Shown piece after piece: positions 36,470-56,112 of a DNA stretch of 64,000 bases; the first letter of the stretch is position 1; every line of letters starts with the position of its first letter. The notes under the pieces are model-generated. The model was not told the origin of the DNA. It did not search any database and saw only the letters and a program-made list of their open reading frames with translations. Source of the stretch: a virus. Position numbers and translations under genes: made by a program. The stretch covers positions 1 to 64,000 of IMG/VR virus record IMGVR_UViG_3300026484_000105. One strand, given 5' to 3'.

Positions 36470-39400
36470 TTAATTAAAATACATCTCAACCGCTTTATCG
36501 CGTATGATGTTAAGTAATGTACTTGTAGTACCAACAATATTTGGACTACTAACTATCCTAGCGGCTATAGATCTACTGGAAAACATAGCCTCAACTTCTA
36601 TGCCATCTTCGGTTTTTATATCATAATTAAACACATCCCCAATAGTTGTTTTAAGCTGATGTCCAATAATAGCTTTATCACCTACACCCATACCTACTTC
36701 ATCTTTTATGCTAATTTTTATTTCAACATTTCCTTCAGTAAGAGGATTGCCTTTTATAGAGTAAGAGCTATTAACTTTACCAGTTATTGTTTTATTCATA
36801 TTCTCATCAGCAATTAGTTTATTGGAAGCCTTTACTAATTCTTTTAAAGTGGGACTCAGATCCTCTGTATCGCAATTATAATAAACAGTTATCTTAGTTA
36901 TAATGCCACGCATCTTAGCTTTTGGACTTCTATTTTTAATATTTTGTAGAACCTGTAAAGACTCTTTATCGAGATTACGCTTATCTATAAAATCATTACC
37001 ATCACTTATAGTAAATAAAAGATTATTGGGTTCAACCTTATCTTTTAGTTTAACTATATTCAATATTTCATCTGTAGCTTTAACTATGAAACTCTTGGAC
37101 TTAATTATACTAGTACCTAACCTATTAGTCGTCTTTGACGAAATTGTACAAGAATCCTCATATGTTTCAGTATTCTCCATAAGACCAACTTTTACGGTAG
37201 TACCAGTTTTATAAATAACTCTAGTGCTATCAAAAATATCTGGTTCAAAAAACTGTTTGTCGTACGAAATGGTGTTGCCATTCTTAAATACGTCGCCTAC
37301 CTTTAGATCGGTTATAATTGTATGTAAATAAGAAACGCCAGCTTCTTCTTTGGTATTCCACTCACCAAGTTTAACGTTCACTATCTTACCACTTTTATAT
37401 TTTATCTTAATATATGATTTTTTAACCTCCATAACTATACCATCTTCTTTAGCCATATAACAATAGTTCATATCTAGTTTATATGGTAAGATTGCTTCAT
37501 GTCCAGTTCTTACAGCAGGAACCCTCATCTCGCTCATACCTATAGTATGACTATTCTGAATATTAATAAAGTTTACATTATCTTTACATAGATCGTTACT
37601 CTATGCGATACAGTTATAAATATTTAAATCAGTAATTAATTTATAATTACATCTCATAAATAACCCCTATATGTTAATACTGTGTATTCATATAAAGCTT
37701 GTGATTAACCGTATCTCTATGGGATTTCCCCATATGATGAGACTATATCTTCAACCAATGTTATCATCTCATTGGCTGTAAACCATTTCCATTTAAAGGA
37801 TGTCTCCTACCTACATTTAGGCCGTACTCCCAATTGCGGGATAGTCGTTGAACACATACCTTTAATAAGGTACTTCGCTGCGGATCACCAATTACAATCA
37901 CAGTGACATTAATTACAACTAACTACTGATAAGGTAGCCTTGAACATTAACATTTGATCTTGCTGACTACTTAAAGCCATACATATATCTTTTACTATAC
38001 CCTAGTGGTTAGCTAGGCCCCAGACTCTTCATCCTCATGTTACCATGGTCTGGTTAGTGTATATGTCTTTACGGTTTCCCCGTCAATTAGATTTATTTAT
38101 TTTTACAACCATTACTGATTGCCGAAGCTAAAATTAACCTCTTTGGATCATCATTTGTGCTGGCAGGAGCCAATAAGGCACTTGTTGATAGGTAATTTTC
38201 AGGTTTAAGTTTGCCCTTATCAGTATCAACCATACCTCTAACAGTGTTTAATTTCGGACTAGCAGACATATACGCAGATACAGCAACATCACCACTATCT
38301 TTAACTCCCTCTGAAATAACACCTATTTCACTACTATGGATAACCCTTGTGTCCATAGACATACTTTCTTTAGACCTACCTCCAGAACCAAGGAATGTAA
38401 CATCCTCATTTTGCTTAAGCGATGCTATTGGGTTTAGATTATCAACTAACATTGAAGTACTGTCATCATTTATGTCTCTCCAAACTGCAAAAGGAGCCAT
38501 AGTGATCTTAGCCTTAGAAAAGACATTCTTATTTTCAAAATCCCTTATACTCTTAATAAGTTCTGTGTATAACATTCCAGATACACGCTCATAACCTTTT
38601 ATAAGCATTCCGTTGGCATTGTTTGGATTTATATAATTATTATCCAATAATAACTCAGCGGCTCTTATCAATAGCCCCTTAAATGTTTTTGGTTCCTTTA
38701 TGATTTCAAGAATAGATTCGGTTATAGGATCTACAAACATATCTTCCATTAACTTAATCTCATTAACATATAGAGGACTTAAGTCCATGTTATTAAAAAG
38801 TATAGGAAAGGATTCTTTTTTATCTAATAGACCATAATCAATATCCTTAAGTATTTTTGCCATTGTAGTAAACCCACCAAATATTAGAGTAGCTAGTTTA
38901 TCGTTCCTCGTTAACACTATCTTCTTATCCTTGAAGGTAACGACGTACTCATCTGGTTTTAAACTATAACGCTCTGTTCTTTTAAGAACGGTGTGCTTTG
39001 CTCTTAATAATTTTAAAAGACTAGTTATACCAAGATAATATGATAATAGTATAGCTATAGGTAGTCTCTTTTTAAATATCTTTATAACTACTGTTTCTAT
39101 AGGCATGCTAGAAGTATCTATGCCTAACTGTTCAAAAATATTAGGTAACTCTTTTAGTTTAGAACCGTTAGCTTCATACAGATTGTTATCGAAATCCATT
39201 AGAATTGGTAAACTATTAGCTGATGATCCAACAATTACATATTTACCATTTTGTTCTATGATAATGGTTTTAGCCTTAATATTCTTAACAAGATCTCTAC
39301 GATTCTTATAATCAAAGCTATATTTGTTCTTACCTACATTAAACATTCTTATATATTTACCAATATACGCATATAGATTTGGTACTTTTACATCCATTAG

Positions 39401-41287: not shown

Positions 41288-42604
41288 ATGAATAAAACAT
41301 TTAAAACGATAAAGTCATCAGTAGGTAAACATAGCTATAATTTTCTAGCATTGCCAGATACTAAAGCTTTTAAAATAGAAGTAGTATTTGATTACGGTTC
41401 TAACTTAGAAAACCATTATTATAAAAAGTACGGTAAGAAGGTATTTGGTATAAGTCACCTTACAGAACATTTGTGTTTTAAATCTCCTGTTGGTTATGAT
41501 AGCGATAAATTGCTTGCCGAATTAAAAAAGAAAGGTAATAGGAATGCCAGTACTGGCCCAACACACATTAACTATTTCTTTAATACTATCATGGAGAATA
41601 TGGAATTCGGTATAGATGCAATTACTAAAGTAGCATTTAATGATTTTAGTAGAATAACTGATGAAGAGTTTGAATCTGAAAAATCAGTGGTTATGTCTGA
41701 AGTTGGCAGATACAATGATGATAAGCAAACTATGTTTAGTCTAAACACTAAGAACGCCTTAATGGGTACTGATAAAGATGATAACATTCTTGGTAGTGTT
41801 GAGATCTTAAAAGATGTTACTCTTGATGATTGTAAAAAGATCAGAGCGTTAACATTACAAGAAGCTAAGGTATGGTTTAACATAACATATGATCCAATGG
41901 AATATGTTAATGAAGATGATGTCATTGAACATATTGAAAGAGTACTAGATGACATTGATATAGTACAACAAGATGTTTCTATTGGTAGATATGAATATTA
42001 TAAACCAATTACTATTAAGAAAGATGAAATTGTTTTACCATCTGAATCTGATCGTACAATCATTAATCTTGTATTTGAAACTGATACTAACGTATGGGTT
42101 AGAAGCATGATAAACTATTATGTTTCTGCACTTGCTGATGAAACATCTCTTTACAATACAATCAGAGATAGACATGGTTTAACATATGGCGTTACATTCG
42201 GTAAAGATGATATTATGAACGTTGATCATACTAGATTAGTTGTTGATGTTGCTCCAGATAAAATCGATCTTACTATGGAACTTATAGAAGAAGTTATGGT
42301 TAAAAGTAGTGGGAAATTCAATAGAGAAATATTCGAAGAACTTATGGCCAATAGAAAGTTGAACATCACTATAGAGAGATGTAATCCAAAAACATATGGT
42401 TTCTTATTTAATACTGAAGTAGATCATCCTGAATTACTTGCTCCATTTAAAGATGTACTCGAAGACAACATTTCAAGTATAGATGAAATATTTGATGATA
42501 AATACATCACATTTGAAGCTGCAAAACAATATATGAACGAATTAGTAGAAATAACTAAATCTAAATCATATAGTAAGGTTATAAGTGAAAAAATAAAAGA
42601 TTAG
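41288..42604 (+). CDS. M16 family (insulinase-like) zinc peptidase
   Basis: GISHLTEHLCF (HxxEH), RNAST, EKSVVMSE, IRDRHGLTYGV. Confidence 0.88.
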   Translation: MNKTFKTIKSSVGKHSYNFLALPDTKAFKIEVVFDYGSNLENHYYKKYGKKVFGISHLTEHLCFKSPVGYDSDKLLAELKKKGNRNASTGPTHINYFFNTIMENMEFGIDAITKVAFNDFSRITDEEFESEKSVVMSEVGRYNDDKQTMFSLNTKNALMGTDKDDNILGSVEILKDVTLDDCKKIRALTLQEAKVWFNITYDPMEYVNEDDVIEHIERVLDDIDIVQQDVSIGRYEYYKPITIKKDEIVLPSESDRTIINLVFETDTNVWVRSMINYYVSALADETSLYNTIRDRHGLTYGVTFGKDDIMNVDHTRLVVDVAPDKIDLTMELIEEVMVKSSGKFNREIFEELMANRKLNITIERCNPKTYGFLFNTEVDHPELLAPFKDVLEDNISSIDEIFDDKYITFEAAKQYMNELVEITKSKSYSKVISEKIKD

Positions 42605-44951: not shown

Positions 44952-47900
44952 CTACCAACTTAATGTTTTAGCTACAATATCAATTACAGTATTAGATGCA
45001 GAATACGTTAGATTACCCTCAGGGGTTATATAAAAACTTCTTTTTCTAAAAGTTTCATGTAATTCATCTATGGCTTCTTTTGTATGTAATATTACATATG
45101 AGCATTTATCACCATCAACGTTGCCTTCATCCGTATCGTTACTACGAACAGTTCTCTTATGAACTTCTCTAGCTCTCACTAGAAGACGAGACTATATCAT
45201 GCTCTTCTGACACTATATCAGTAAGAGCCAAACCACTTCGATTTAAGCACTAGGTACGTGCACCCACTTGGGCCCTACTCCCCGCTACAGGATAGTCGTT
45301 GAACTTTACCCATATTATTTTTTAATAACTTAGGGTCTTAGCTGCTAAAGGGAACCTTAGGTTCCACGGTTACCTATTATACTATTATAGTGCTGATATT
45401 CATAAACATTTAGTTAGTTACTCTAAACTAAAATATCGAGGCTATATTAATATTAATCACTTAAGATCATCCATACAAGATACAATACTGTATCCCAGTA
45501 GCTTTGCAACTACTCTTGTTAAACCATCATAGACTAGTTTCCTGCCTATTGTGGTGGTATAGCTTTAAGGCTTTCCAGCAATTCAATTTGTTATTCGACA
45601 TGCTTCTCAACATGAAGGATCAATTTGTTCTTTAACTTAAATTTAACAACATCTTTTGGACTCGTGTCCATGGGCAACTTCTCACCCTTACATAAATCAA
45701 GTATATTCCGATAATACTTGTTATTAACAACATACATTTTCTCTTTACACAGCATATAAGTTAGATATTCTTCTATGTTCTTTAGCTTAGTAAACGGTAT
45801 CCTTATAAGAGGGATCTTATTCATTTTAGCTAAATGGTTCTTTTCGGCATCAGACTTCTTCTGTATTTTGAATGCTTTCTCGCCACCAAAGAACTTTACA
45901 GGTTTGAAATGTTGTATACCATCAAATTCTATTAGAATATTTAATTCTGGTAGATAGAAGTCATACATGTATCTATTTTCATTAAGCCGATAATTCTTGA
46001 TGTAATCAATCTTATTAAGTTCCAAAAATATACGTATACGTTGCTCACCTTTAGATTCGCTACATAACGGACACCCAGCTTGTTTATGTATATGGTCATC
46101 AGGCGTAATTCTAAATTCACCATGTTTTTTACAAATTAATGTAACCTTAGTTTTCTTATTTGTATAATTAACCATACTATAATCATATCTAGAACCGTGT
46201 AAATTTATAGCCTTCTCTATCCATTCTTTAGTAGTGTAGTTATAATTATTAGTACATTTAACACACTTAGCCCCATTATAATGGTTCCATGGAATTTGTT
46301 CGAAATCACCATGTACCCTACATCTTATAGTAACCTTATTTTTTGAATTTATATATTTAGTTTTACTATAATCATATAGATCACCATGAACCTTTCTCGA
46401 ACGTTCTATAAATTCTTCTGTAGTTAATGTATCCTGTTCTACCCTACTTACGATACCGCATTGTTTACAGCCACTACCAGATATATGATGAAATCTGTTT
46501 TGTGTAAACTCACCATGTATCGGACAGATGATTTTTATACTACCATCCTTAACGCTATAGCTTTCTGGTATATATAAATACTTACCATTATGCACTTTAT
46601 TAGCTTTATCAATGAACTTCTTGGCCTTAGATAGAATCTTATTAATAGGAGTTATATAAGCGCATTTGGGACATCCCTGTCCTTTTATATGTTTAGTTGG
46701 TTTTTGCTTAAACGGACCGTGTTCTTTACACTGTATAGTTACTGCAGTCCTTGCATCTATGAATTCAACTAATGTATAATTGTACCTATTACCGTGTGCT
46801 TCATGGGCCTTTAATAAGAAGGTTTCTTTTGTCATTCTTAATTTATCTTTAGCACATTCTCTACACCCTTGTTTATTCCGTATATGTGAAAATGGTCTTT
46901 GTTTAAAATCACCATGTATCGGACATGTGATTATTAGTGGTACGTCAGATAGTATGTACTCTGTTTTGTCGTACCTGTATTTGTTGTTATGTACTTCTTT
47001 GGCTTTCTTTATAAAAGCTTCTGTTTTTGTTGTTTTCATTTTTTTCCTATTAGTTTATGTATGTAAATAATATGCGTTTATTATCTATTTCACTCTAATA
47101 GTACCCGTAAAAAAATCAATCTGCGCCTAATAAATTTAGGTGGGTGAAGTGGGGTGATAACGAGTTCTGGTATGCCTCTGTTAATATCGGATATTCATAA
47201 ACCGTATCAGCCTCTTTCCAATCTACTCCTAAAATGCTAACTTTTCTAGCCTTAACTGTTGTTTTTAGATAAGGTATACTTGGATATATTCCACCTAGAC
47301 CAGTAACAGGGTATCTAGTAAGAAAGCCAGGATATTTATCAACATCTTCATATACAGCTAAGTATATAAGTTCTGCATATGTTATCGGTCTTAAATATTT
47401 GGTATTTATATCATCAGGTATTTCATTAGTATTCTTAATAAACTTAACCTCTTTACCATTATCATATATTAAGGCTAGATAATAATCCTCAACAGTTATA
47501 GGTTCAGATCTTAATTCATCTTGAGCTAATTTATTTATAACTCCATTAAGTCCTTCATCAGATGTCCACATGTCTTTTGTTTTTGGTTTTATATCTACAT
47601 TTACTGTTCTCATAGATTTTTTATCTACAAGCATAGCTGTATTACTATGTAAATCAAATATGTTATTTAACATAAGATTATTTAACTGGTACTTAGTAAT
47701 GGGATTGATAGCTTTAGCATATTGATATAAACCTATAACAGTATTATTAAAACTAATTCTATTTTTAGTATTAGTTAAATCATGTATTACTGATGGTACT
47801 GGTGTGATGACATTTCTGGTAGAATCTCTAAGAGCTCTCTTAGTCCACTTATTTTGTATAAATTTCTTCTTACCATCCATTAAAGAAATATAATGATCGT

Positions 47901-48567
47901 ATATCTCAACTATGATAGTTTGTATCTTAAATCTTATTGGATCTAATACCATAGGATCGTTATGTAGAGTAGAGATGTTTTCTAATGCATTTGTTGTGGT
48001 TAGTAGCCTCCTATAAACAGCATTTATTTCATCTTCACTTGGCTTACCATTATCATCAACAATATAATCCCTTAGTCCAGCAGGTATGACTAAAAAGTGA
48101 TCTATGAGTATTTCACCCTTACTATATTTTTTAATAAGCTTTATTTTAAATTCCCTGGCATCACTACCATTACTATTTAATTTAATTTTATCATACTTTT
48201 TCATAAAGAATTCGAAACCAGTATCTCCTTCTTCTGCATTAGAGGAAATGAAATCTCCACCTTTTTCATCCCATTTTGCATAAGTCTTACCAGATAGTAT
48301 ATCTAAATATAACTTTTTTAAACTTGAGATATGTTTAAAGACAAGTGGGTGTAGAACCTTTATATGTAATTTTATATAACCGAATTTATTATTCCGTTCT
48401 TCACTTCCGACCCGACCGAAAGTCTCAGTAGAGAATAAACCATTAGTACTGAAGTTTTTAGTAGATGGTTCAAATATACTTAGGTCACTTACTTCCCTCA
48501 TTACACCTATCTGTTTTCTATTTAATAATAGTAAATCTATATTAAAAGGTGGTAAATTTGACAGCAT
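44952..48567 (-). CDS. virion RNA polymerase beta' catalytic subunit (phiKZ gp180-like), spliced: exon 1 48567-47118, exon 2 45118-44952, 538 aa
   Basis: GLFSTETFG, VIPAGLRD, TRNVIT, TRYPV; GAT T + TT GAT GGT GAT restores LGADFDGD. Confidence 0.93.
45119..47117 (-). mobile_element. group I intron (1999 nt) carrying a homing endonuclease
   Basis: U at the 5' splice site, terminal G. P1 GAUU/GAUU pairs with AAUUGAUC (45618-45625); P2 CAUGUU-GAGA-AGCAUG; P AAUUGCUGGAAA; Q UUAGCAGCUAAG; R GUUCAACGACUAU (45292-45304); S AUGAUAUAGUC (45190-45200). Confidence 0.93.
45591..47039 (-). CDS. intron-encoded homing endonuclease: 5 Zn-binding repeats (DUF723-like) plus Vsr/EDxHD-type nuclease domain
   Basis: Five F/W-I/L..A/S...H...Y.Y...C..HG.F......H....C..C repeats; C-terminal ESKGE, YDFYLP, IEFDGIQHF, SDAEKN, LIRIP. 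Confidence 0.85.
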   Translation of the reverse strand: MKTTKTEAFIKKAKEVHNNKYRYDKTEYILSDVPLIITCPIHGDFKQRPFSHIRNKQGCRECAKDKLRMTKETFLLKAHEAHGNRYNYTLVEFIDARTAVTIQCKEHGPFKQKPTKHIKGQGCPKCAYITPINKILSKAKKFIDKANKVHNGKYLYIPESYSVKDGSIKIICPIHGEFTQNRFHHISGSGCKQCGIVSRVEQDTLTTEEFIERSRKVHGDLYDYSKTKYINSKNKVTIRCRVHGDFEQIPWNHYNGAKCVKCTNNYNYTTKEWIEKAINLHGSRYDYSMVNYTNKKTKVTLICKKHGEFRITPDDHIHKQAGCPLCSESKGEQRIRIFLELNKIDYIKNYRLNENRYMYDFYLPELNILIEFDGIQHFKPVKFFGGEKAFKIQKKSDAEKNHLAKMNKIPLIRIPFTKLKNIEEYLTYMLCKEKMYVVNNKYYRNILDLCKGEKLPMDTSPKDVVKFKLKNKLILHVEKHVE

Positions 48568-48636: not shown

Positions 48637-51600
48637 ATGGCTGCAGTTGATGATATAGATTTAGACGATATGGACTTTGAAGATGACGATATGGATTTCG
48701 GCTTCGATGATCCATTTTCAGAACCACCACCTCCCAAGGATACGAGGGAAGCAGTAAGTAGAACTATAAATAAAGTAGGAAGTAGTTTTATGGATGACTT
48801 TACTGACGATAAGGCTGAAACAGCTGCTGCATTCGTTAAAGAAAGTATTCCAAGTAAGATAAGTGTAGAAGCAAATAATATAATTAATGTTGGAGAATCA
48901 TTTAAGAAAGATATCTTAAAGTCTAGTTCGGAAGTAGCAGAGGCTACTAAACCAATGTTAAAAGCTATTGAAGGGTTGGTTCCTAAGGGTGGTAAGATAG
49001 AAACCCTAGTTAATCTAGCTAAAGAAAAACTAGGTATGAACGATGAGCATCGTACTAGTGAAGATGTTGCTGCTGATGCTGCTGCGATGGCTACTAGTTC
49101 AGTAGTTAACGTTTTAGGAGAGATGCAAGATAGAGATACTATAAGAGAAACTATAACAGCATCTATAGCCGACAAGAAGACACAATCTCAATTAGATCTA
49201 AGTGCTATTCAGGCAGGACACCTAGAAGCGATAAGTAATTTTAATATAGATGTAACTAATAGTTTTTACAGGAAATCATTAGAATTACAATATAGACATT
49301 TATTTACAACAACAGAACAACTAGATGTTACTAAACAGGGTTTCGAAACCTTTAAAAATCAATTAGAATCAATCGTTGCTAACAGCGCATTACCAGATTT
49401 AGTTAAAACAAGAAATTCAGAATTTATGAAACACCGCTTATTAGAAAGAGCTGGTGAGAGTTTATTTGCCAGAACAGGTGTCTTTGATAATATAAAGAAA
49501 AGACTATCCAATGAAGTACAGGGTGTAACATCCGTATTAACTAGCGGTATTACTAGTCTTGGTGATGCTGCTGACATGGTTAAAAGTACTAGTGAGATGT
49601 CTGCTATGGCTGGCGGTACTGAAGGGATGGTCGGAGGATTACTTGCTGGTGGAGTAAGAGGACTAGTAGGTACTAAAGTAGGTGACATATTAGGTAAGAC
49701 TAAGGTTGGTAAAAAAGGTATAGAACTAGTAAGAAATTTTAATCTAGATCCTTCCGAAGCACTTAAAGATATGGCTGATAATAGACCAGATGGTGTATTT
49801 AAAAACATATTAGAAACTCTTGGTGATTTTACTGAAAATAAAGATGCTGAAGCATCATATTCCATTAATAAAGTAGATCGAGATAATGTCTCAGTATTTG
49901 ATGGTAGAGCACATACTTCTTTAACTAAGATCATACCTGGACTTTTATCTAAAATCCTAAAAGAAGTTAGTAGTTCAAGAACTGGTAAAGAAGAAGATGA
50001 GTTACGATATGATTATGATACTGGTACTTTTAAAACTACTAGCAGCTTAAAAAATGAAATAACTGAGAAGATTCAAAATGACCTTGTCAGTAGTGGCGTT
50101 AACAGAAACGTTGAAGGTATCATTACAACTATCGTTGAAGAAACTAATCTTAACGTAGACGATGATGAGATAGCTGAAATAAAACAAGCACTCCTAAGTT
50201 ATGTTATTAAAGGTAAAAGACTACTAGTTAACAAACTTGAAGAAGATGGTCTCTACGACGAATTAGATCCTAAGTTATCTAAAAAATTTAAAAAAGCTAT
50301 AACTGATTTTACAGAAACTAAAGATGATGATCTAAATTATAAAAGAGTTAGGCACCTAAATAATGAATTAGGATATATAAAGGATAGAGCTCCGTCACCT
50401 CAAGAACTACTTAATAAGTATTCTGATGCAGGTAGTATTGATCTTCTAAAAGATGCAGGTATAGTAGAACTTGATAGTGTTACAGGTGAATACAAATTAG
50501 ATAACGCTAGTTATAAGACACATATGACTACTGCTATTAAAACAGCTAAAGATAAAGATCAAGAAGAGGAAGAAGAACCTAAGACGATAGCTGAGAAATT
50601 AGCTGAAAAATATATCAAAAAGAAAAAGAAAGATGTAGATTCTATAACTCAAGAAGAGGAAGAAGAAGCTCCTATAAATAAAGGTTTTATAAATAGAGCT
50701 AAAGGTAAAGTCTCTTCATTTGGTGGTACGATAGAACAGGACATCATCAATACTATAGATGGTAAGCACGATATAGGTGGTAAAGCTAAGCGGTTTGCTA
50801 AAGAGGCTAACAAATATGTTACAGGTAAAGAGGATCTATCTGGTTACAAATTTAGCACTGAATCTAATCTAAAAAACAATTTAGCACCACAGACTAAACG
50901 CCGATCATTATTGGGTGATTTCAAAACAGTTAAAACAGAATTATCTGAAATACATTCTGTAGATGACGCTTTAAATAAAGCCAGAAATATAGATAATTTC
51001 AAAGATACTGAAAGTAAAATAAAAGCTATAAATGATTTAGTGTCTTCTAGTAAAGATCCAAAGGACTTTATAGAAAAAATAAAAGAAACTGATGATTATA
51101 AAAAATTATCTACAGATATAAAAAATCATATAGATAAACTAGAAAGTAAAGTGCCTACCGTAAAAACAGAAGCAAAGAAATTTGTAGAAGATAGGGTAAG
51201 CGATTTAAAGGATAATTCGCATTATAAAAATATAGTAGAATCTGATATAGTAAAAGATTCTAAAGCTAAAGCTAAAACCTTAGTAAAAACAGTAAAAGAT
51301 AGTAAGATAGTTTCCGATATAAAAGATTCTGAACTTGCTAATAAAGTCACAACTGATATTACTCTATTAAAAGATAGAGTATCCAAACTTACGGAACTAA
51401 CTGATCTTAATAACATAGTTACAGAATTATGGACTAAGGCATCTGAACATTATGATTATCTGGAAACTTTGGAAGATACAAAAAGTAATAGGGCTAAGAA
51501 AAAGGAACTCTATAGATATATAAGATTTTTAGAGAATATAAGATTAGATAAGCTTGATCCTAAAGATGCTAAGTTAAAGGTATCTAAAGCTACTGTTAAA

Positions 51601-54600
51601 TTAGGTAAAATACTTCTAACCAAAACAGCAGAAACATTTACAGAAACATCTAAAGATAAAGTAAGTAAAATTATAACTTCTAGTAAAGACAAGATAGAAG
51701 AAATAAAAGATATAGATGTTAGTAAGGTAAAAGACATTAAGGTATCTGATGCTACGCAGTATGCTATGGATACTGTAGTGACTGCTAAGGTAAAAAGTAA
51801 GCAGTTAAAAGATGACTTTAAGAAAACTGAACTATATAAATCAGCAGAAGATAAATATAAAACAGTAGAAAGTTCCATTAGTAGTAAAATAGATAAGACT
51901 ATAACCGTTACTAAAAAAGCAGAAATATTATCAGAAGTGGATAATGTACTACTTGATAATATAATAAAAGTACAGAAGTCTAATGTAGATGAGGTACTTA
52001 AAAAAGAGAGAATAAGCAAACTAAACGAGTCTAGACAAAAAATAAAAGCAGCTGATGTAAGTAAACTAAGACCAAAAGATTTAACTAGACTAGTTAGTGA
52101 TAGTCTAAGTCCTTTAAAAGACATAATTACAGCAGATATAAAAACAAAAGCTTTGGATGCAAAAGATAATATATCAAGCAAAAAAGACGAGTTTATAAGT
52201 AAAGTACAGGATAAGGTACCTGCATTAAAAACTACTGGTAACTTTTCAGAACAATTAACTACAGCTAAAACATATACTTTAGATAAAGTAGATACCGTAA
52301 AAGATACTACAACTAATATATTGCCTGCAATACCCAATCCTAATTCATTTAGTATAAATGATATTAAGTTAAAAATAGTAGGCTTCTTAGATAAATCTTT
52401 TAAAGAGTTGGAGAAAGTAGAAGACTATTTAAATAAGAATCCAGATGAGGCTAAAGATAATTCTGACAAAGTAAATAAGATTAGAAAGAATTTAGCTACA
52501 TTAAGAAATACAAATCCAGAAGATAAAGAAACTGTATCTACTCTTACAAAAACAATTAAAGAGGATATAGAATCACTAGTAGATAAGATTCTACCATCTG
52601 AAAAACTTAGTAAGACATATAGTGCTGAAGATATAGAAAAAGAAAGAGCTAAAGATAGAGCTAAAGAGAAAGAAAGTACCGAGAACAGTCTTTTAGATAT
52701 AATTAATTCTGATGATCCGTTAGGTACTCTTAAGAATAAGCTTAAAAGGGCTGCAACCAGTAGGATAAAATCCACTGCTACAGGTGCAGTTAAAGCAGCA
52801 TTTAATTTTATTAAGAGAGATGCTGAAAGAGGTAAAAGACTAAGAAGTTATCTTAAAAAGAAATTATTCAATAAGAAGAAAACAGGTCCAGGGATACTCC
52901 ATAGATCCTTAAATAAAGTACTCAATGCGACAGGCAAGGTAATCACAACTGTAGGTACCACTGGAGCAAATGTCGTAAAAGCGGATATCGATAATGGTGA
53001 GAAACTAAGGGATAAATTAAAGAATCTATTTAATAAAAAGAGGAATACAGAAACTATAAAGGAAGATGTTCCTGCAAATAGAATAGATTATAAAGAAGAA
53101 AAGAAAAATGGTCCTGGTATAGTTGGGTCAGCAAATAAAGTAAATTCTGCTTTTGATAGGGACGGGTCTGGTCATAGAGATGGGTCATGGTTGGACAGAC
53201 TTAAGAAAAAGAAAGATGTGCTTAAAAATAAGAATAAAACATTTTTAGCTAAAGCAAAAGATAGTAGTTTTAGTTGGTTGCCTATATTATTAGGAGCTTT
53301 TAGTTTTATTAAGCCGTTATTGAGTAAGTTGGTATCTGGAATAAAGAATCTTGGTAGTTTTATTGTTAAGGGTATTGGTAAGGCATTTAAGTCAGTTGGT
53401 AGTTTTCTATTAAATGGTATAAAAGGTATATTCGGTAGTCTTGGTAAAATGTTGGCTGGTCCATTGAATGCAGTAAAAGATGTAGCCTCTAAGGGTCTAG
53501 ATAAAACTAAAGAATTAGCCAGTAAAGCAGCCGACAAAGTTAAGGGTATAGGTGCTGCTGTATATAATAAAGCTAAAACCTTCGGAAGTAAAGTAATTAA
53601 TGGTATGAAGAATACCAAGGGTGGTAAACTTATTGCTAATGGTATTAAAACTACCAAAGATGCTATAACAAGTGTTGGCAGTAAAGCTATAAGTACTTTG
53701 GAAAATAGTAGAGTTGGAAAAGCTACTACTAAACTTGTTGGTAAAGCAGTAGAAAAGGTTCCCACTAAAAGCATCCTTAATTTATTGAAATCGTTTAAGT
53801 CTACAATATTTAAAAAGCTAGGTAAACGAGCAGGTAGTAAAGTTGCTGCTAAATTGGCTGCGAAAACTGCGGCTAGAGTCATTCCTTTTGCAGGTACTGC
53901 ATTGTTGGCATATGATGCGGCTAAGATAGGTTATGATATGTTCCATAATGGTACTAGTCTTAAGAGTGCTATTTCTAAACAGATACTTGGTTTTGATTTA
54001 TTTGGAGATGAGGCAGCTAAAGATGAAGATGGCAATCTTATTAAACCAGATGAAAAGGGTGTGACGAAGTCTAGTACTGGCGATCACATTGATACAGAAA
54101 GAAAAGAGAGCAATAAGGAAACAGCTAAGGTTAAAGATGGGGATTCCATTAAACCAAATGAAAAGAGGGTAAAGAGATCCATTGTAAAAAGACCTCCTGT
54201 AAAGAGATCCAGTACCGATGACTACATTGATGCTGAAAGAAGAGAGGACGATAAGGAAGCTGCTAGAATTGAAAGGGAATTAGTGAATAAGAAATTTACT
54301 GTAAAATCTAGAGATGTTATTGTAGATAAGTATGGTTCTACTATAAGAACGAGATCCAAAAAAGAGTTAATCGCAAATCCAGATGTCGATTCTAAAGGGG
54401 CAAATGGCATTAATAAAGTAGGTGGATCACCTGTTAAGATGGGAGGAATTAAAAACAAAGTTCTACCAATGACCCCTATTAATAATGAAAAATTCAAACC
54501 TGTTTCAAAATACGATATTCTTAATTCGTTAGCTATTATACAAAAACAAATAGAAGTAGATAGGGGAAAACTCAAAAAGAGAGTAAACACAAATGGCAAG

Positions 54601-56112
54601 ATGGGAATGCTTAATGCGTCATCTTGGGTATTAGGTAGCATTATAGACGAGGTTAGCAATATACCAGACGGTCCTAACTTTACAATTAAGCTTAATGAGT
54701 TAGATAAGGATATGATTGATGTTGCGTCTTCTACCTTGGCTAGATATCCTAAAATAGATCTTAAAGCCATATTTAAGACAGGTAGAGTACAAAAGCTACC
54801 TAAACCAATTATAGAGAAAGAAGAAGTAAAAGAAAAAACTAGCGTATTTGATAAAGGATTAAATCTTTTAAATAAGGCTAAGAATAAAATAACTTCATTC
54901 TTTGGTTTCAATTCAGATAAGAAGAAAGAAGCAACAAAAGATATTATATCTAATAATAAAAATAAGAAAGTAGGGACTGTAGCTAAAATAGATAAGTTAC
55001 CAGTTAATACAGGTGATTTAGTTAGTGACCTTAAAAGGGATGAGGGCGTAGTTCTACATACATATAAAGATAGTCTAGGTTTAAAAACCATAGGTACTGG
55101 TCACTTAGTAGATAAAAAAGGTGGTATTCCTTTACGTAAGATAATTGGTGAAGACAAAGATAAAATATCTATGGAGGAAAATGATTATATTTTACAATAT
55201 GATATAGGTCAAGTTAGTAAAGATTTATATTCTAGGTTACCATGGCTTAAAGATAAGCCAGATAATGTACAGAAGTCATTAGTTAATATGGCCTTTAATC
55301 TTGGCGTTGACGGGTTACTTAAATTTAAAAATACTTTAAAAAGTATAAAGAATGATGAGTACACGAATGCTTCTAGAGGAATGCTTAATAGTAAATGGGC
55401 TAGACAAGTTGGTAACAGAGCTACTAGATTAGCTAGTATAGTTGCGTCTACAGAGTATGATTCTAACAGTACATCTAAGACTGAGAATAAAACAGATAGT
55501 TCAGTTGCAAGTAAACCATCTATGAAATTAGCATCCAAAGTAAAAGATGTTGTGAGTCCTAGTAATAATGTTACTTATAATAAAGCTGGAACAACTACCG
55601 TAAGATTTAATGGTAAAGATTTAAAATTAACTAAACAGCAAGCATCTGTTTTAAGTAATTTTAAGGCAAACGGTAAAACACAGGATGCTCTTAGTCTATT
55701 ATCAAATATATCTAATGGACATAAAACAGATAGTCTAGTTAGTGTAGATAAAGATACTAATAAACAAAGAATATCTAAGACGTTAGCTATGAATAGTGAT
55801 ACTAATAAGGTAATGTCTGTTGAAAGCAATAAAACACTTAGTGCTGTTGCAGAACATGGTGCAATACAAACAGATGAACTAAAAGCACTTAATACCACAA
55901 TGAAGACATCTCTTGAAATACAAAAAGAGACACTTAATGTAATTAGAGAGATGGTTGGTCATACTGGTAAGATAGTTGAACATAATAAAGATAGTACTGC
56001 AGAGGGTGGTAGTGGTCAGAAAGAACACGAGCATCCAAATAAAGCAGTGCCAGCAATAGAAAAAGAAGTACCACAACCAGGTATCTTTTTAGAGAAAAGA
56101 AAATACGCATAA
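48637..56112 (+). CDS. giant tail protein (phiKZ gp181-like, probable tape measure) with GH24 lysozyme domain
   Basis: Divergent from the gp180-like gene; RKSLELQYR, NSALPDLVK, IIPGLLSKI; lysozyme DEG...YKDSLG..TIGTGH...NMAFNLG...SKWARQVGNRA at about 55021-55440. Confidence 0.85.
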   Translation: MAAVDDIDLDDMDFEDDDMDFGFDDPFSEPPPPKDTREAVSRTINKVGSSFMDDFTDDKAETAAAFVKESIPSKISVEANNIINVGESFKKDILKSSSEVAEATKPMLKAIEGLVPKGGKIETLVNLAKEKLGMNDEHRTSEDVAADAAAMATSSVVNVLGEMQDRDTIRETITASIADKKTQSQLDLSAIQAGHLEAISNFNIDVTNSFYRKSLELQYRHLFTTTEQLDVTKQGFETFKNQLESIVANSALPDLVKTRNSEFMKHRLLERAGESLFARTGVFDNIKKRLSNEVQGVTSVLTSGITSLGDAADMVKSTSEMSAMAGGTEGMVGGLLAGGVRGLVGTKVGDILGKTKVGKKGIELVRNFNLDPSEALKDMADNRPDGVFKNILETLGDFTENKDAEASYSINKVDRDNVSVFDGRAHTSLTKIIPGLLSKILKEVSSSRTGKEEDELRYDYDTGTFKTTSSLKNEITEKIQNDLVSSGVNRNVEGIITTIVEETNLNVDDDEIAEIKQALLSYVIKGKRLLVNKLEEDGLYDELDPKLSKKFKKAITDFTETKDDDLNYKRVRHLNNELGYIKDRAPSPQELLNKYSDAGSIDLLKDAGIVELDSVTGEYKLDNASYKTHMTTAIKTAKDKDQEEEEEPKTIAEKLAEKYIKKKKKDVDSITQEEEEEAPINKGFINRAKGKVSSFGGTIEQDIINTIDGKHDIGGKAKRFAKEANKYVTGKEDLSGYKFSTESNLKNNLAPQTKRRSLLGDFKTVKTELSEIHSVDDALNKARNIDNFKDTESKIKAINDLVSSSKDPKDFIEKIKETDDYKKLSTDIKNHIDKLESKVPTVKTEAKKFVEDRVSDLKDNSHYKNIVESDIVKDSKAKAKTLVKTVKDSKIVSDIKDSELANKVTTDITLLKDRVSKLTELTDLNNIVTELWTKASEHYDYLETLEDTKSNRAKKKELYRYIRFLENIRLDKLDPKDAKLKVSKATVKLGKILLTKTAETFTETSKDKVSKIITSSKDKIEEIKDIDVSKVKDIKVSDATQYAMDTVVTAKVKSKQLKDDFKKTELYKSAEDKYKTVESSISSKIDKTITVTKKAEILSEVDNVLLDNIIKVQKSNVDEVLKKERISKLNESRQKIKAADVSKLRPKDLTRLVSDSLSPLKDIITADIKTKALDAKDNISSKKDEFISKVQDKVPALKTTGNFSEQLTTAKTYTLDKVDTVKDTTTNILPAIPNPNSFSINDIKLKIVGFLDKSFKELEKVEDYLNKNPDEAKDNSDKVNKIRKNLATLRNTNPEDKETVSTLTKTIKEDIESLVDKILPSEKLSKTYSAEDIEKERAKDRAKEKESTENSLLDIINSDDPLGTLKNKLKRAATSRIKSTATGAVKAAFNFIKRDAERGKRLRSYLKKKLFNKKKTGPGILHRSLNKVLNATGKVITTVGTTGANVVKADIDNGEKLRDKLKNLFNKKRNTETIKEDVPANRIDYKEEKKNGPGIVGSANKVNSAFDRDGSGHRDGSWLDRLKKKKDVLKNKNKTFLAKAKDSSFSWLPILLGAFSFIKPLLSKLVSGIKNLGSFIVKGIGKAFKSVGSFLLNGIKGIFGSLGKMLAGPLNAVKDVASKGLDKTKELASKAADKVKGIGAAVYNKAKTFGSKVINGMKNTKGGKLIANGIKTTKDAITSVGSKAISTLENSRVGKATTKLVGKAVEKVPTKSILNLLKSFKSTIFKKLGKRAGSKVAAKLAAKTAARVIPFAGTALLAYDAAKIGYDMFHNGTSLKSAISKQILGFDLFGDEAAKDEDGNLIKPDEKGVTKSSTGDHIDTERKESNKETAKVKDGDSIKPNEKRVKRSIVKRPPVKRSSTDDYIDAERREDDKEAARIERELVNKKFTVKSRDVIVDKYGSTIRTRSKKELIANPDVDSKGANGINKVGGSPVKMGGIKNKVLPMTPINNEKFKPVSKYDILNSLAIIQKQIEVDRGKLKKRVNTNGKMGMLNASSWVLGSIIDEVSNIPDGPNFTIKLNELDKDMIDVASSTLARYPKIDLKAIFKTGRVQKLPKPIIEKEEVKEKTSVFDKGLNLLNKAKNKITSFFGFNSDKKKEATKDIISNNKNKKVGTVAKIDKLPVNTGDLVSDLKRDEGVVLHTYKDSLGLKTIGTGHLVDKKGGIPLRKIIGEDKDKISMEENDYILQYDIGQVSKDLYSRLPWLKDKPDNVQKSLVNMAFNLGVDGLLKFKNTLKSIKNDEYTNASRGMLNSKWARQVGNRATRLASIVASTEYDSNSTSKTENKTDSSVASKPSMKLASKVKDVVSPSNNVTYNKAGTTTVRFNGKDLKLTKQQASVLSNFKANGKTQDALSLLSNISNGHKTDSLVSVDKDTNKQRISKTLAMNSDTNKVMSVESNKTLSAVAEHGAIQTDELKALNTTMKTSLEIQKETLNVIREMVGHTGKIVEHNKDSTAEGGSGQKEHEHPNKAVPAIEKEVPQPGIFLEKRKYA

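What the first reader, a model, noticed from the sequence alone, without database searches (positions are those of the whole stretch)
45591..47117. Endonuclease ORF sits in the P1 loop and its last codons are the splice guide
The internal guide AAUUGAUC (45618-45625) and P2 (45599-45614) lie within the coding 3' end (KLILHVEKHV), about 1.5 kb from the 5' splice site. Translating ribosomes would melt P1/P2, so endonuclease synthesis and splicing should be mutually exclusive on a given RNA. Also CUAUUAG (47095-47101) can pair with CUAAUAG (47047-47053), which overlaps the SD, resembling the RBS-occluding hairpins of T4 intron endonucleases. Inference: a switch between making active vRNAP and making the nuclease.
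Basis: partly seen in the sequence, partly recalled or inferred. Interest (0 to 1): 0.75.

Follow-up and report, generated by a model that had tools for sequence, protein, structure and literature searches.

The report
Homing-nuclease gene inside intron's guide helix
A self-splicing group I intron splits the catalytic motif of a jumbo phage's virion RNA polymerase, and the last twelve codons of its homing-nuclease gene also form the RNA helices that select the splice site; the layout is real, but the kind is already described.

Summary
A 1,999-nt subgroup IA group I intron (47117..45119, minus strand) splits the virion RNA polymerase beta' gene. Joining the exons restores ADFDGD, collinear with intron-less PhiPA3 gp212.

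The 482-codon nuclease ORF lies between the two strands of P1. Its last 12 codons are the P1 3' strand (guide, 45625-45618) and P2 (45614-45599). P3 starts one base after the stop codon.

Complementarity alone does not identify the guide in this 2-kb AT-rich intron. The support is comparative:
- 16 related introns keep an invariant G five bases before a covarying P2.
- The exon/guide pairs covary.
- A sister phage that lost the ORF kept exactly these bases.

The hairpin next to the ribosome-binding site is real (z = -4.7) and recurs in relatives.

The proposed "switch" is only an inference, and the principle is published: T4 td/I-TevI, and a Synechocystis tRNA-fMet intron with a P1 ORF overlapping P1/P2. 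The closest relative encodes chimallin, so splicing probably occurs in a ribosome-free phage nucleus. Splicing and translation can also follow one another on the same RNA.

The scan has noted P1-loop nuclease genes on other DNA before. Verdict: a new member of a known kind, of moderate interest.

The parts
47118..48567 (-). Exon 1 of the virion RNA polymerase beta' N-terminal subunit. It ends ...GCA GAU U; the reading frame meets UGA (47118-47116) across the splice site.
   Evidence: phrog_2986 E 4e-164. 39% identity, E 1e-99, to PhiPA3 gp212 (phiKZ gp180-like).
47109..47121 (-). P1 5' strand: GAUU|GAUU, then a U run. The 5' splice site lies after U47118, which forms the U.G wobble with G45621.
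   Evidence: In L003 and L027 the first intron base is A instead of G, which turns a G.U pair into A-U.
47047..47101 (-). Hairpin in the P1 loop: a 7-bp outer stem plus an inner 9-bp stem. Its 3' arm reaches into the SD.
   Evidence: z = -4.7. Arms identical in L003. Replaced in L027 by a different 12-bp stem that covers the whole SD.
47037..47049 (-). SD (UAGGA) and AUG start codon of the nuclease ORF.
   Evidence: Read from the sequence. ORF list.
47028..47034 (-). 5' strand of a 7-bp long-range stem. It pairs with 45645-45651 and closes the ORF into a sub-loop of L1.
   Evidence: Forms in the MFE fold of the ORF-less L003 precursor and of the ORF-trimmed window construct. In L027 a C-to-U change leaves a G.U pair.
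45591..47039 (-). Homing-endonuclease ORF, 482 aa: five DUF723-type zinc-ribbon repeats plus a C-terminal Vsr/DUF559-like nuclease region.
   Evidence: Pfam DUF723 E 3e-14, DUF559 E 0.008. phrog_559 E 6e-88, phrog_9084 'homing endonuclease' E 9e-27. dN/dS about 0.1 against L027.
45645..45651 (-). 3' strand of the long-range stem that closes the ORF loop. In L003 it lies just inside the retained 3' remnant of the ORF.
45618..45633 (-). P1 3' strand, the internal guide. 45625-45618 pairs with GAUU|GAUU. 45633-45626 can extend the helix against the U run.
   Evidence: Invariant G45621 at alignment A1 column 26. Exon/guide covariation across the family. Retained in ORF-less L003.
45599..45614 (-). 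P2: 6 bp with a GAGA (GNRA) tetraloop, lying entirely in codons 475-480.
   Evidence: All 7 aligned P2 pairs have compensatory changes in 16 sequences. The U.G pair in the window is C-G in L003 and L027.
45119..45590 (-). Ribozyme core, P3 to P9.x. P3 5' is 45590-45585 and P3 3' is 45234-45229. The R element starts at 45304. P7 is 45297-45293 paired with 45194-45190. The terminal G is 45119.
   Evidence: 55 pairs, 92.4% paired, covariation 0.608 against about 0.1 for slid controls, 0 of 500 shuffles. The order P7-P7.1-P7.2-P3' marks subgroup IA.
44952..45118 (-). Exon 2. It begins UU GAU GGU GAU (completing F, then DGD).
   Evidence: phrog_2986 positions 482-537. The spliced translation is collinear with PhiPA3 gp212.

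Best explanation
This is a mobile subgroup IA group I intron inserted in the ADFDGD catalytic motif of the virion RNA polymerase beta' gene of a probable nucleus-forming jumbo phage.

Shown here:
- Its homing-endonuclease gene occupies the loop of P1.
- The ORF's last 12 codons are the P1 3' strand (guide) and P2, and P3 begins one base after the stop codon.
- A stable hairpin ends at the SD, and a long-range stem begins 2 codons after the AUG.

Inferred:
- A ribosome finishing or terminating this ORF would unfold P1, P2 and P3, so translation must be kept rare or late relative to folding.
- This is achieved by burying the start region in the structured P1-loop junction.
- In a phage nucleus it is also achieved by physical separation: the precursor is made and can splice where there are no ribosomes, and the nuclease is then translated in the cytoplasm from exported RNA, either excised intron or unspliced precursor.
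- The relation between splicing and translation is therefore an ordering in time and space, not a per-molecule decision between polymerase and nuclease.
- The overlap itself is best explained by 'core creep' of the ORF end into ribozyme sequence. Afterwards those codons are held by RNA-level selection.
For: Splice junction: the exon join gives ...LLGADFDGDKCSYV. It aligns without a gap to intron-less PhiPA3 gp212.

Ribozyme:
- 16-sequence alignment A1.
- RNAalifold finds 37 of 56 pairs with compensatory change.
- 92.4% of cells are paired, 0 of 500 shuffles reach the observed values, and slid controls give about 40%.
- Aligned ORF-less homologues L008 and L013 score 88 and 86 bits on Rfam RF00028.

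Guide position:
- An invariant G lies 5 nt before P2.
- The exon/guide pairs covary.
- In ORF-less L004, L008, L012, L013, L016, L022 and L025 the same slot lies 5-30 nt after the splice site.
- L003 lost about 1.3 kb of ORF but kept the last 65 nt or so. There the same guide is the best partner for the splice site.

Start-region structure: (z = -4.7). The L027 12-bp stem covers the SD. L019, PhiPA3 and L023 also have SD-sequestering hairpins.

Core creep:
- Stop codons lie before the guide (L019), in the P2 loop (PhiPA3, L023), after P2 (window, L027, L006) or in P4 (L005).
- Two unrelated nuclease families occupy the same loop.

Dual constraint: against L027 the ORF body has dS 1.80 and dN 0.185, but the last 48 codons have dS 0.17.

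Nucleus: chimallin is present in the closest relative G001 and in G002 and G003. PhiPA3 is a model chimallivirus (PMC12908238).

Published principle: PMC3073962 (Table 1 and the I-TevI section) and PMC3984707.
Against: - No splicing, translation or transcript data exist for this phage.
- The window's own hairpin covers only 2-3 nt of the SD.
- P2 and P1 are not significant by energy or complementarity alone.
- Rfam does not detect the window's intron, even at E <= 10.
- Chimallin was not found in the window's own 110-kb record. That record is only 41% complete, so the nucleus argument rests on a 79%-identical relative. It was also not found in G004, the L008 host.
- The low dS of the ORF tail could reflect a recent recombination block that includes the ribozyme, rather than RNA-level selection.
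Confidence: 0.6

Rival explanations
1. Each precursor RNA either folds P1/P2 and yields polymerase mRNA, or is translated and yields nuclease. The hairpin, or an internal transcription start between 47054 and 47094, sets the ratio, as with T4 td/I-TevI.
For: The ORF/P1/P2/P3 overlap is real. SD-proximal hairpins recur in the family. The T4 precedent is that opening the I-TevI hairpin causes a splicing defect (PMC3073962).
Against: Excised intron RNA still carries the whole ORF, so one molecule can do both in sequence. The probable phage-nucleus context removes ribosomes from the place of transcription (PMC12908238). No promoter-like signal was found in the hairpin loop, and the scan overall is below shuffled expectation at 19 against 23. 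That scan does not model jumbo-phage promoters.
Confidence: 0.2
2. Passive overlap with no functional consequence. The nuclease is made at trace level or not at all. The tail codons are conserved only because this whole 3' block, tail plus ribozyme, was recently exchanged between phages.
For: Identity to L027 jumps from about 75% to 95-98% about 145 nt before the stop codon. That is well upstream of P1/P2 and continues through the ribozyme. This is the pattern a recombination boundary would give.
Against: The ORF body is under strong purifying selection (dN/dS about 0.1), so the protein is in use. L003 shows that bases beyond the last 65 nt or so can be lost, whereas the guide and P2 cannot.
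Confidence: 0.15
3. A different guide close to the 5' splice site forms P1, and the ORF lies outside P1, for example between P1 and P2.
For: In L019 a 9-bp candidate lies 50 nt after the splice site, whereas the slot before P2 gives only about 4 bp. Complementarity alone cannot discriminate in AT-rich RNA.
Against: In the window no candidate of 7 bp or more lies within the first 100 nt. The slot before P2 is the P1 3' strand in all ORF-less relatives, and it covaries with the exon end. The MFE fold of the L003 precursor forms the distal P1.
Confidence: 0.05

Closest known systems
Synechocystis PCC 6803 tRNA-fMet group I intron with its PD-(D/E)XK homing endonuclease (Table 1 of PMC3073962)
   Same: The endonuclease ORF is inserted in P1, and the ORF overlaps P1/P2 (61 nt listed). 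The nuclease is of the PD-(D/E)XK type, as the window's C-terminal domain appears to be.
   Different: The host there is a bacterial tRNA gene, not a phage protein gene. The ribozyme lineage differs. Its ORF has no zinc-ribbon repeat array. I did not compare the sequences.
Phage T4 td intron / I-TevI (PMC3073962; Gibb and Edgell 2010, as cited there and in PMC3984707)
   Same: The ORF 3' end supplies bases to essential helices. [quoted passage not shown] Ribosome occupancy of core sequence impairs splicing. It is a subgroup IA phage intron in an essential gene.
   Different: The T4 ORF is in the P6 loop and overlaps P6a/P7 by 20 nt, and it has a late promoter inside the hairpin. Here the ORF is in P1 and overlaps P1/P2 by 35 nt, with P3 abutting the stop. 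No promoter was identified, and the host phage is probably nucleus-forming.
PhiPA3 gp210 intron in the vRNAP beta gene gp211/209 (PMC11620839)
   Same: A group I intron carrying a homing endonuclease in a chimallivirus virion RNA polymerase gene, at conserved acidic residues.
   Different: A different subunit (beta, not beta') and a different site, and an HNH nickase. The passages I searched give no ribozyme secondary-structure model, so the ORF position in that ribozyme is not known to me.
PhiPA3 DnaB-helicase intron (locus L001; annotated only as split genes 134/131 plus 'putative endonuclease' 133)
   Same: The same ribozyme family: it aligns in A1, with 82% identity over P3-P5. The ORF is in the P1 loop, the guide lies in its last codons, the stop codon is in the P2 loop, and the SD is sequestered.
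   Different: Different host gene. The nuclease is HNH_3 + NUMOD. Peripheral P5/P6 extensions are shorter.
Physarum LSU rDNA intron with I-PpoI (Table 1 of PMC3073962; that it is translated from excised intron RNA is from my own knowledge)
   Same: The ORF is in P1. Splicing in a nucleus is followed by translation of intron RNA in the cytoplasm, which is the analogy proposed here.
   Different: No ORF/core overlap is listed. It is a eukaryotic Pol I transcript with a His-Cys box enzyme.

Membership tests
Group I intron, subgroup IA | Precise excision restores a conserved, collinear host reading frame | tested here: met
   The join 47118|45118 gives ADFDGD and a 538-aa product collinear with the 550-aa PhiPA3 gp212.
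Group I intron, subgroup IA | U.G wobble at the 5' splice site within P1, and a terminal G at the 3' end | tested here: met
   U47118 pairs with G45621, and the intron ends in G45119. The same holds in all 12 members at this polymerase site.
Group I intron, subgroup IA | Conserved core P3-P8 with a P3/P7 pseudoknot, supported by covariation | tested here: met
   P2, P3, P6, P7.2, P8 and P9 covary. P4, P7 and P7.1 are invariant, so they are compatible but untestable.
Group I intron, subgroup IA | P7.1/P7.2 lie between P7 and P3' | tested here: met
   Helix order in A1.
Group I intron, subgroup IA | Match to Rfam RF00028 at the gathering score | tested here: not met
   The window gives no hit even at E <= 10. 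The aligned compact homologues L008 (88.3 bits) and L013 (86.3 bits) do match. The miss is attributable to the 1.5-kb P1 loop and the long P5/P6 extensions.
Group I intron, subgroup IA | Self-splicing activity | not testable with these tools
   Needs an in vitro transcript or infected-cell RNA.
Intron ORF that overlaps the ribozyme core and is under translational control (td/I-TevI type) | ORF end contributes bases to helices needed for splicing | tested here: met
   Codons 471-482 are the P1 3' strand and P2. P3 starts at 45590, right after the stop codon.
Intron ORF that overlaps the ribozyme core and is under translational control (td/I-TevI type) | Ribosome-binding site sequestered in RNA structure | tested here: inconclusive
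   The hairpin is stable (z = -4.7) but covers only 2-3 nt of the window's SD. Coverage is complete in L027, L019, PhiPA3 and L023.
Intron ORF that overlaps the ribozyme core and is under translational control (td/I-TevI type) | Alternative (late) transcription start that frees the ribosome-binding site | tested here: inconclusive
   There is no sigma-70-like excess. Jumbo-phage promoters are not modelled by the tool.
Intron ORF that overlaps the ribozyme core and is under translational control (td/I-TevI type) | Translation of the ORF lowers splicing | not testable with these tools
   Experimental.
Homing endonuclease | Recognisable nuclease domain kept under purifying selection | tested here: met
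   phrog_559, phrog_681 and phrog_9084. A weak DUF559 hit. dN/dS about 0.1 against L027. No solved relative by sequence. The catalytic residues were not examined.

The most novel reading that the evidence does not exclude
In nucleus-forming jumbo phages, group I introns splice inside the ribosome-free phage nucleus, and their nuclease genes are translated only after export. This would be a eukaryote-like order of events. It removes the usual bacterial penalty for ORFs that run into the ribozyme core.

It would explain three things seen in this intron family:
- Nuclease genes sit in P1, the helix that has to form first.
- Stop codons wander from before the guide to inside P4.
- Unrelated nuclease families share the slot.
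Probability: 0.3. Interest if true: 0.6.

Novelty: new member of a known kind. Interest (0 to 1): 0.35.

Why it matters
The finding gives a well-supported secondary-structure model for an intron family that is common in chimallivirus-type jumbo phages. The standard Rfam model misses the family once it carries an ORF.

The family repeatedly targets the Mg-binding ADFDGD motif of the virion RNA polymerase. That is the same class of gene in which an intron nuclease was shown to decide competition between PhiKZ and PhiPA3.

The architecture is extreme: the splice-site-selecting helix is closed across a 1.5-kb gene, and its 3' strand is coding. This makes the family a convenient natural system to ask whether the phage nucleus relieves the conflict between ribosomes and ribozyme folding. 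PhiPA3's DnaB intron has the same layout and is experimentally tractable.

As a regulatory idea it adds little to what is published for T4.

Tried and rejected
- Rfam on the window, at the gathering score and at E <= 10, finds no group I hit. I rejected this as evidence against an intron, because aligned compact homologues do score.
- Unbiased scan for partners of the 5' splice site: the guide is not the best match in the window. A 10-bp decoy lies inside the ORF at about 46007, and shuffles match it 83% of the time. Complementarity was therefore dropped as evidence.
- Nucleotide search of the phage collection with the whole locus found only short nuclease-repeat matches plus the two leads, PhiPA3 and PH357. 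PH357 shares only the P9 region and was not pursued.
- The core pattern was absent from the genome-contig collection of 185,579 bacterial and archaeal species.
- tblastn of PhiPA3 chimallin and of the nvRNAP beta' subunit against the window's own 110-kb record gave no hits. The profile search also found nothing there. The record is 41% complete, so this is uninformative.
- PDB sequence search with the nuclease gave nothing.
- Sigma-70 promoter and terminator scan was at or below shuffled expectation.
- A local pairing of the splice-site U run with the first codons of the ORF appears in one MFE fold, but at ensemble frequency 0.07. It was not used.
It was redone with coordinates.
Full report
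**What is there**

On the minus strand, an ORF of 483 codons (48567..47116) matches the N-terminal part of jumbo-phage RNA polymerase beta' (phrog_2986, profile positions 3-484). A short ORF at 45179..44952 matches profile positions 482-537. The first ORF ends ...LLGAD and then meets a stop codon.

Joining U47118 to U45118 gives GCA GAU U|UU GAU GGU GAU. The product reads ...LLGADFDGDKCSYV... and is 538 aa long. It aligns without a gap through the ADFDGD motif of the uninterrupted PhiPA3 gp212, annotated as similar to phiKZ gp180.

PhiPA3 gp212 lies next to a giant divergently transcribed virion gene. The window's gene lies next to the 2,491-codon ORF at 48637..56112 in the same way. The host gene is therefore the virion RNA polymerase beta' N-subunit. 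The intron is 47117..45119, 1,999 nt, and ends in G.

**It is a group I intron, subgroup IA**

Rfam finds nothing in the window, even at E <= 10. A 30-nt pattern from the R/P7.1 region recovered relatives: 7 viral contigs, 17 metagenome contigs and no cellular genome.

I aligned sixteen distinct members from the guide to the 3' end (A1).
- RNAalifold gives 56 pairs, 37 of them with compensatory changes.
- A structure with P2, P3, P4, P5a, P6, P7 (as a pseudoknot), P7.1, P7.2, P8 and P9 has 92.4% of cells paired.
- Its covariation score is 0.608, against about 0.1 when partners are slid by 1-3 columns. None of 500 shuffles reaches the observed values.
- Every pair of P2, P3, P8 and P9 changes on both sides. 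P4, P7 and P7.1 are invariant.
- The order P7-P7.1-P7.2-P3' is that of subgroup IA.
- Two compact aligned members, L008 and L013, score 88 and 86 bits on RF00028.

The window's intron is probably missed because of its 1.5-kb P1 loop and its long P5/P6 extensions.

**Where the guide is**

It has the U.G wobble at the cleavage site, and it can extend along the U run to about 13 bp with one mismatch.

Complementarity by itself proves nothing here. An unbiased scan finds a 10-bp decoy inside the ORF. 828 of 1000 shuffles of the intron give a helix at least that long somewhere.

The evidence is positional and comparative.
1. An invariant G (window 45621) lies 5 nt before P2 in all 16 sequences.
2. 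In the ORF-less members at the same polymerase site (L004, L008, L012, L013, L016, L022, L025) this slot lies only 5-30 nt after the splice site and is the only possible P1 partner.
3. The exon end and the slot covary. It is GAU|/GUC in the seven phase-0 members, GACU|/GGUC in L004, and GAUU|/GAUC in the window, L027 and L003.
4. L003 and L027 have A instead of G as the first intron base. This converts a G.U pair of P1 into A-U.
5. L003 comes from a phage with 79% identity in exon 1. It has the same intron with about 1.3 kb of ORF deleted and AUG changed to AUA. It retains about 120 nt at the 5' end and the last 65 nt or so of the ORF. In its 666-nt intron the same guide is the top-scoring partner. 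The MFE fold of its precursor forms this P1 spontaneously.

No candidate of 7 bp or more lies in the first 100 nt of the window's intron. The "different IGS near the 5' end" refutation therefore fails.

**P2 and what the ORF end encodes**

P2 is 45614-45609 paired with 45604-45599, with a GAGA loop. In the family it is a 6-8-bp stem with a GNRA loop and full covariation. The window's U.G pair is C-G in L003 and L027. In L027 this costs a Val-to-Ala change.

Codons 471-482 (...KLILHVEKHVE) thus spell the P1 3' strand and P2. The stop codon is 45593-45591, and P3's 5' strand is 45590-45585. From the known reach of a ribosome downstream of its A site, a terminating ribosome would also cover P3 and the start of P4. 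This last point is inference.

**The ORF**

The ORF has five DUF723-type zinc-ribbon repeats and a C-terminal region that hits phrog_559, phrog_681 and phrog_9084 ("homing endonuclease"). It hits DUF559 only weakly. There is no solved relative by sequence.

L027 carries the same gene with four repeats.
- Between the two, the body has dN 0.185 and dS 1.80, so the protein is under purifying selection.
- The last 48 codons have dS 0.17.
- Nucleotide identity jumps from about 75% to 95-98% at about 45737 and stays there through the ribozyme.
- Nuclease-domain profiles end at about residue 435-446. The tail therefore lies outside the conserved domain.

This fits the "core creep" model of Edgell, Chalamcharla and Belfort (PMC3073962). 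A recombination boundary is an alternative explanation for the identity jump.

**The same layout in relatives**

ORF-bearing members all have the ORF in the P1 loop, but the stop codons differ in position:
- before the guide in L019;
- in the P2 loop in the PhiPA3 DnaB intron and in L023;
- after P2 in the window, L027 and L006;
- inside P4 in L005.

The nucleases belong to at least two unrelated families. PhiPA3, L019, L023 and L006 have HNH_3 + NUMOD. The window and L027 have the zinc-ribbon type. L019 sits at the very same polymerase site as the window.

**The ribosome-binding-site hairpin**

Its 3' arm covers only UAG of UAGGA.
- The arms are identical in L003.
- L027 has a different 12-bp stem at the same place that buries the whole SD.
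- The predicted starts in L019, PhiPA3 and L023 also lie in SD-sequestering hairpins.
- A 7-bp long-range stem (47034-47028 with 45651-45645) closes the ORF two codons after the AUG.

The start region is thus flanked by structure in the folded P1-loop junction. No promoter-like signal was found, but the scan does not cover jumbo-phage promoters.

**Mechanism**

Simultaneous translation of the ORF end and a folded P1/P2/P3 are incompatible; that much follows from the anatomy. Three considerations temper the idea that this amounts to a switch.
- The excised intron retains the ORF, so the two outcomes are not exclusive per molecule.
- The principle and its control by RBS hairpins are published for T4 td/I-TevI. 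Table 1 of PMC3073962 lists a P1-inserted PD-(D/E)XK ORF overlapping P1/P2 by 61 nt in the Synechocystis tRNA-fMet intron (PMC3073962, PMC3984707).
- The closest relative (G001) encodes a chimallin homologue: phrog_4795 E 6e-42, and PF25677 above its cut-off. So do the complete genomes that carry L005 and L006. PhiPA3 is a model nucleus-forming phage.

In such phages transcription is separated from translation (PMC12908238). Splicing can then finish before any ribosome meets the RNA. The window's own record is only 41% complete and lacks the chimallin region, so this step is inferred.

**Novelty**

Group I introns with homing nucleases in chimallivirus vRNAP genes are published for the beta subunit (PMC11620839). 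I did not find the beta' ADFDGD site or this ribozyme family's structure described in the papers I read. I made no dedicated literature search for either.

The scan has earlier noted P1-loop nuclease genes in phage tRNA-Leu introns on other DNA.

Noticed in passing
window 37576-38136 (-): A second, ORF-less group I intron of a related IA type. Its P, R and S elements are visible, and its R region is 80% identical to this intron's. Both large vRNAP subunits would then need splicing.
   Followed up: partly
L013:2348-2968 and L016:7375 onward: Twin introns in the same catalytic motif. In L013 a second RF00028 match (53 bits) starts right after the 12-nt FDGD micro-exon that follows the first intron. 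In L016 'FDG' is followed by another P-element-like sequence.
   Followed up: partly
window 45591-45737 (-), compared with L027: There is a sharp identity boundary inside the nuclease ORF. Upstream the identity is about 75%, with saturated synonymous change. The last 48 codons and the ribozyme are 95-100% identical. The cause is either a recombination junction or RNA-level constraint.
   Followed up: partly
window 46700-46880 (-), compared with L027: The window's nuclease has five zinc-ribbon repeats and L027's orthologue has four. One repeat unit of 57 codons has been gained or lost, which could alter target-site reach.
   Followed up: no
L001 (PhiPA3 NC_028999.1, 116.2-118.4 kb): The PhiPA3 DnaB-like helicase is annotated as two genes (134 and 131) with a 'putative endonuclease' 133 lying over ribozyme core sequence. 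It is in fact one gene split by an intron of this family, which carries a roughly 474-aa HNH+NUMOD ORF in P1.
   Followed up: partly
window 41288-42604 (+): An M16-type peptidase-like ORF lies on the opposite strand, near the interrupted beta' gene. It was not examined here.
   Followed up: no
window 45349-45369 (-): A GC-rich hairpin (GGAACC-UAA-GGUUCC) is inserted just before the Q element. In A1 it is shared only with L003, L027 and L019.
   Followed up: no
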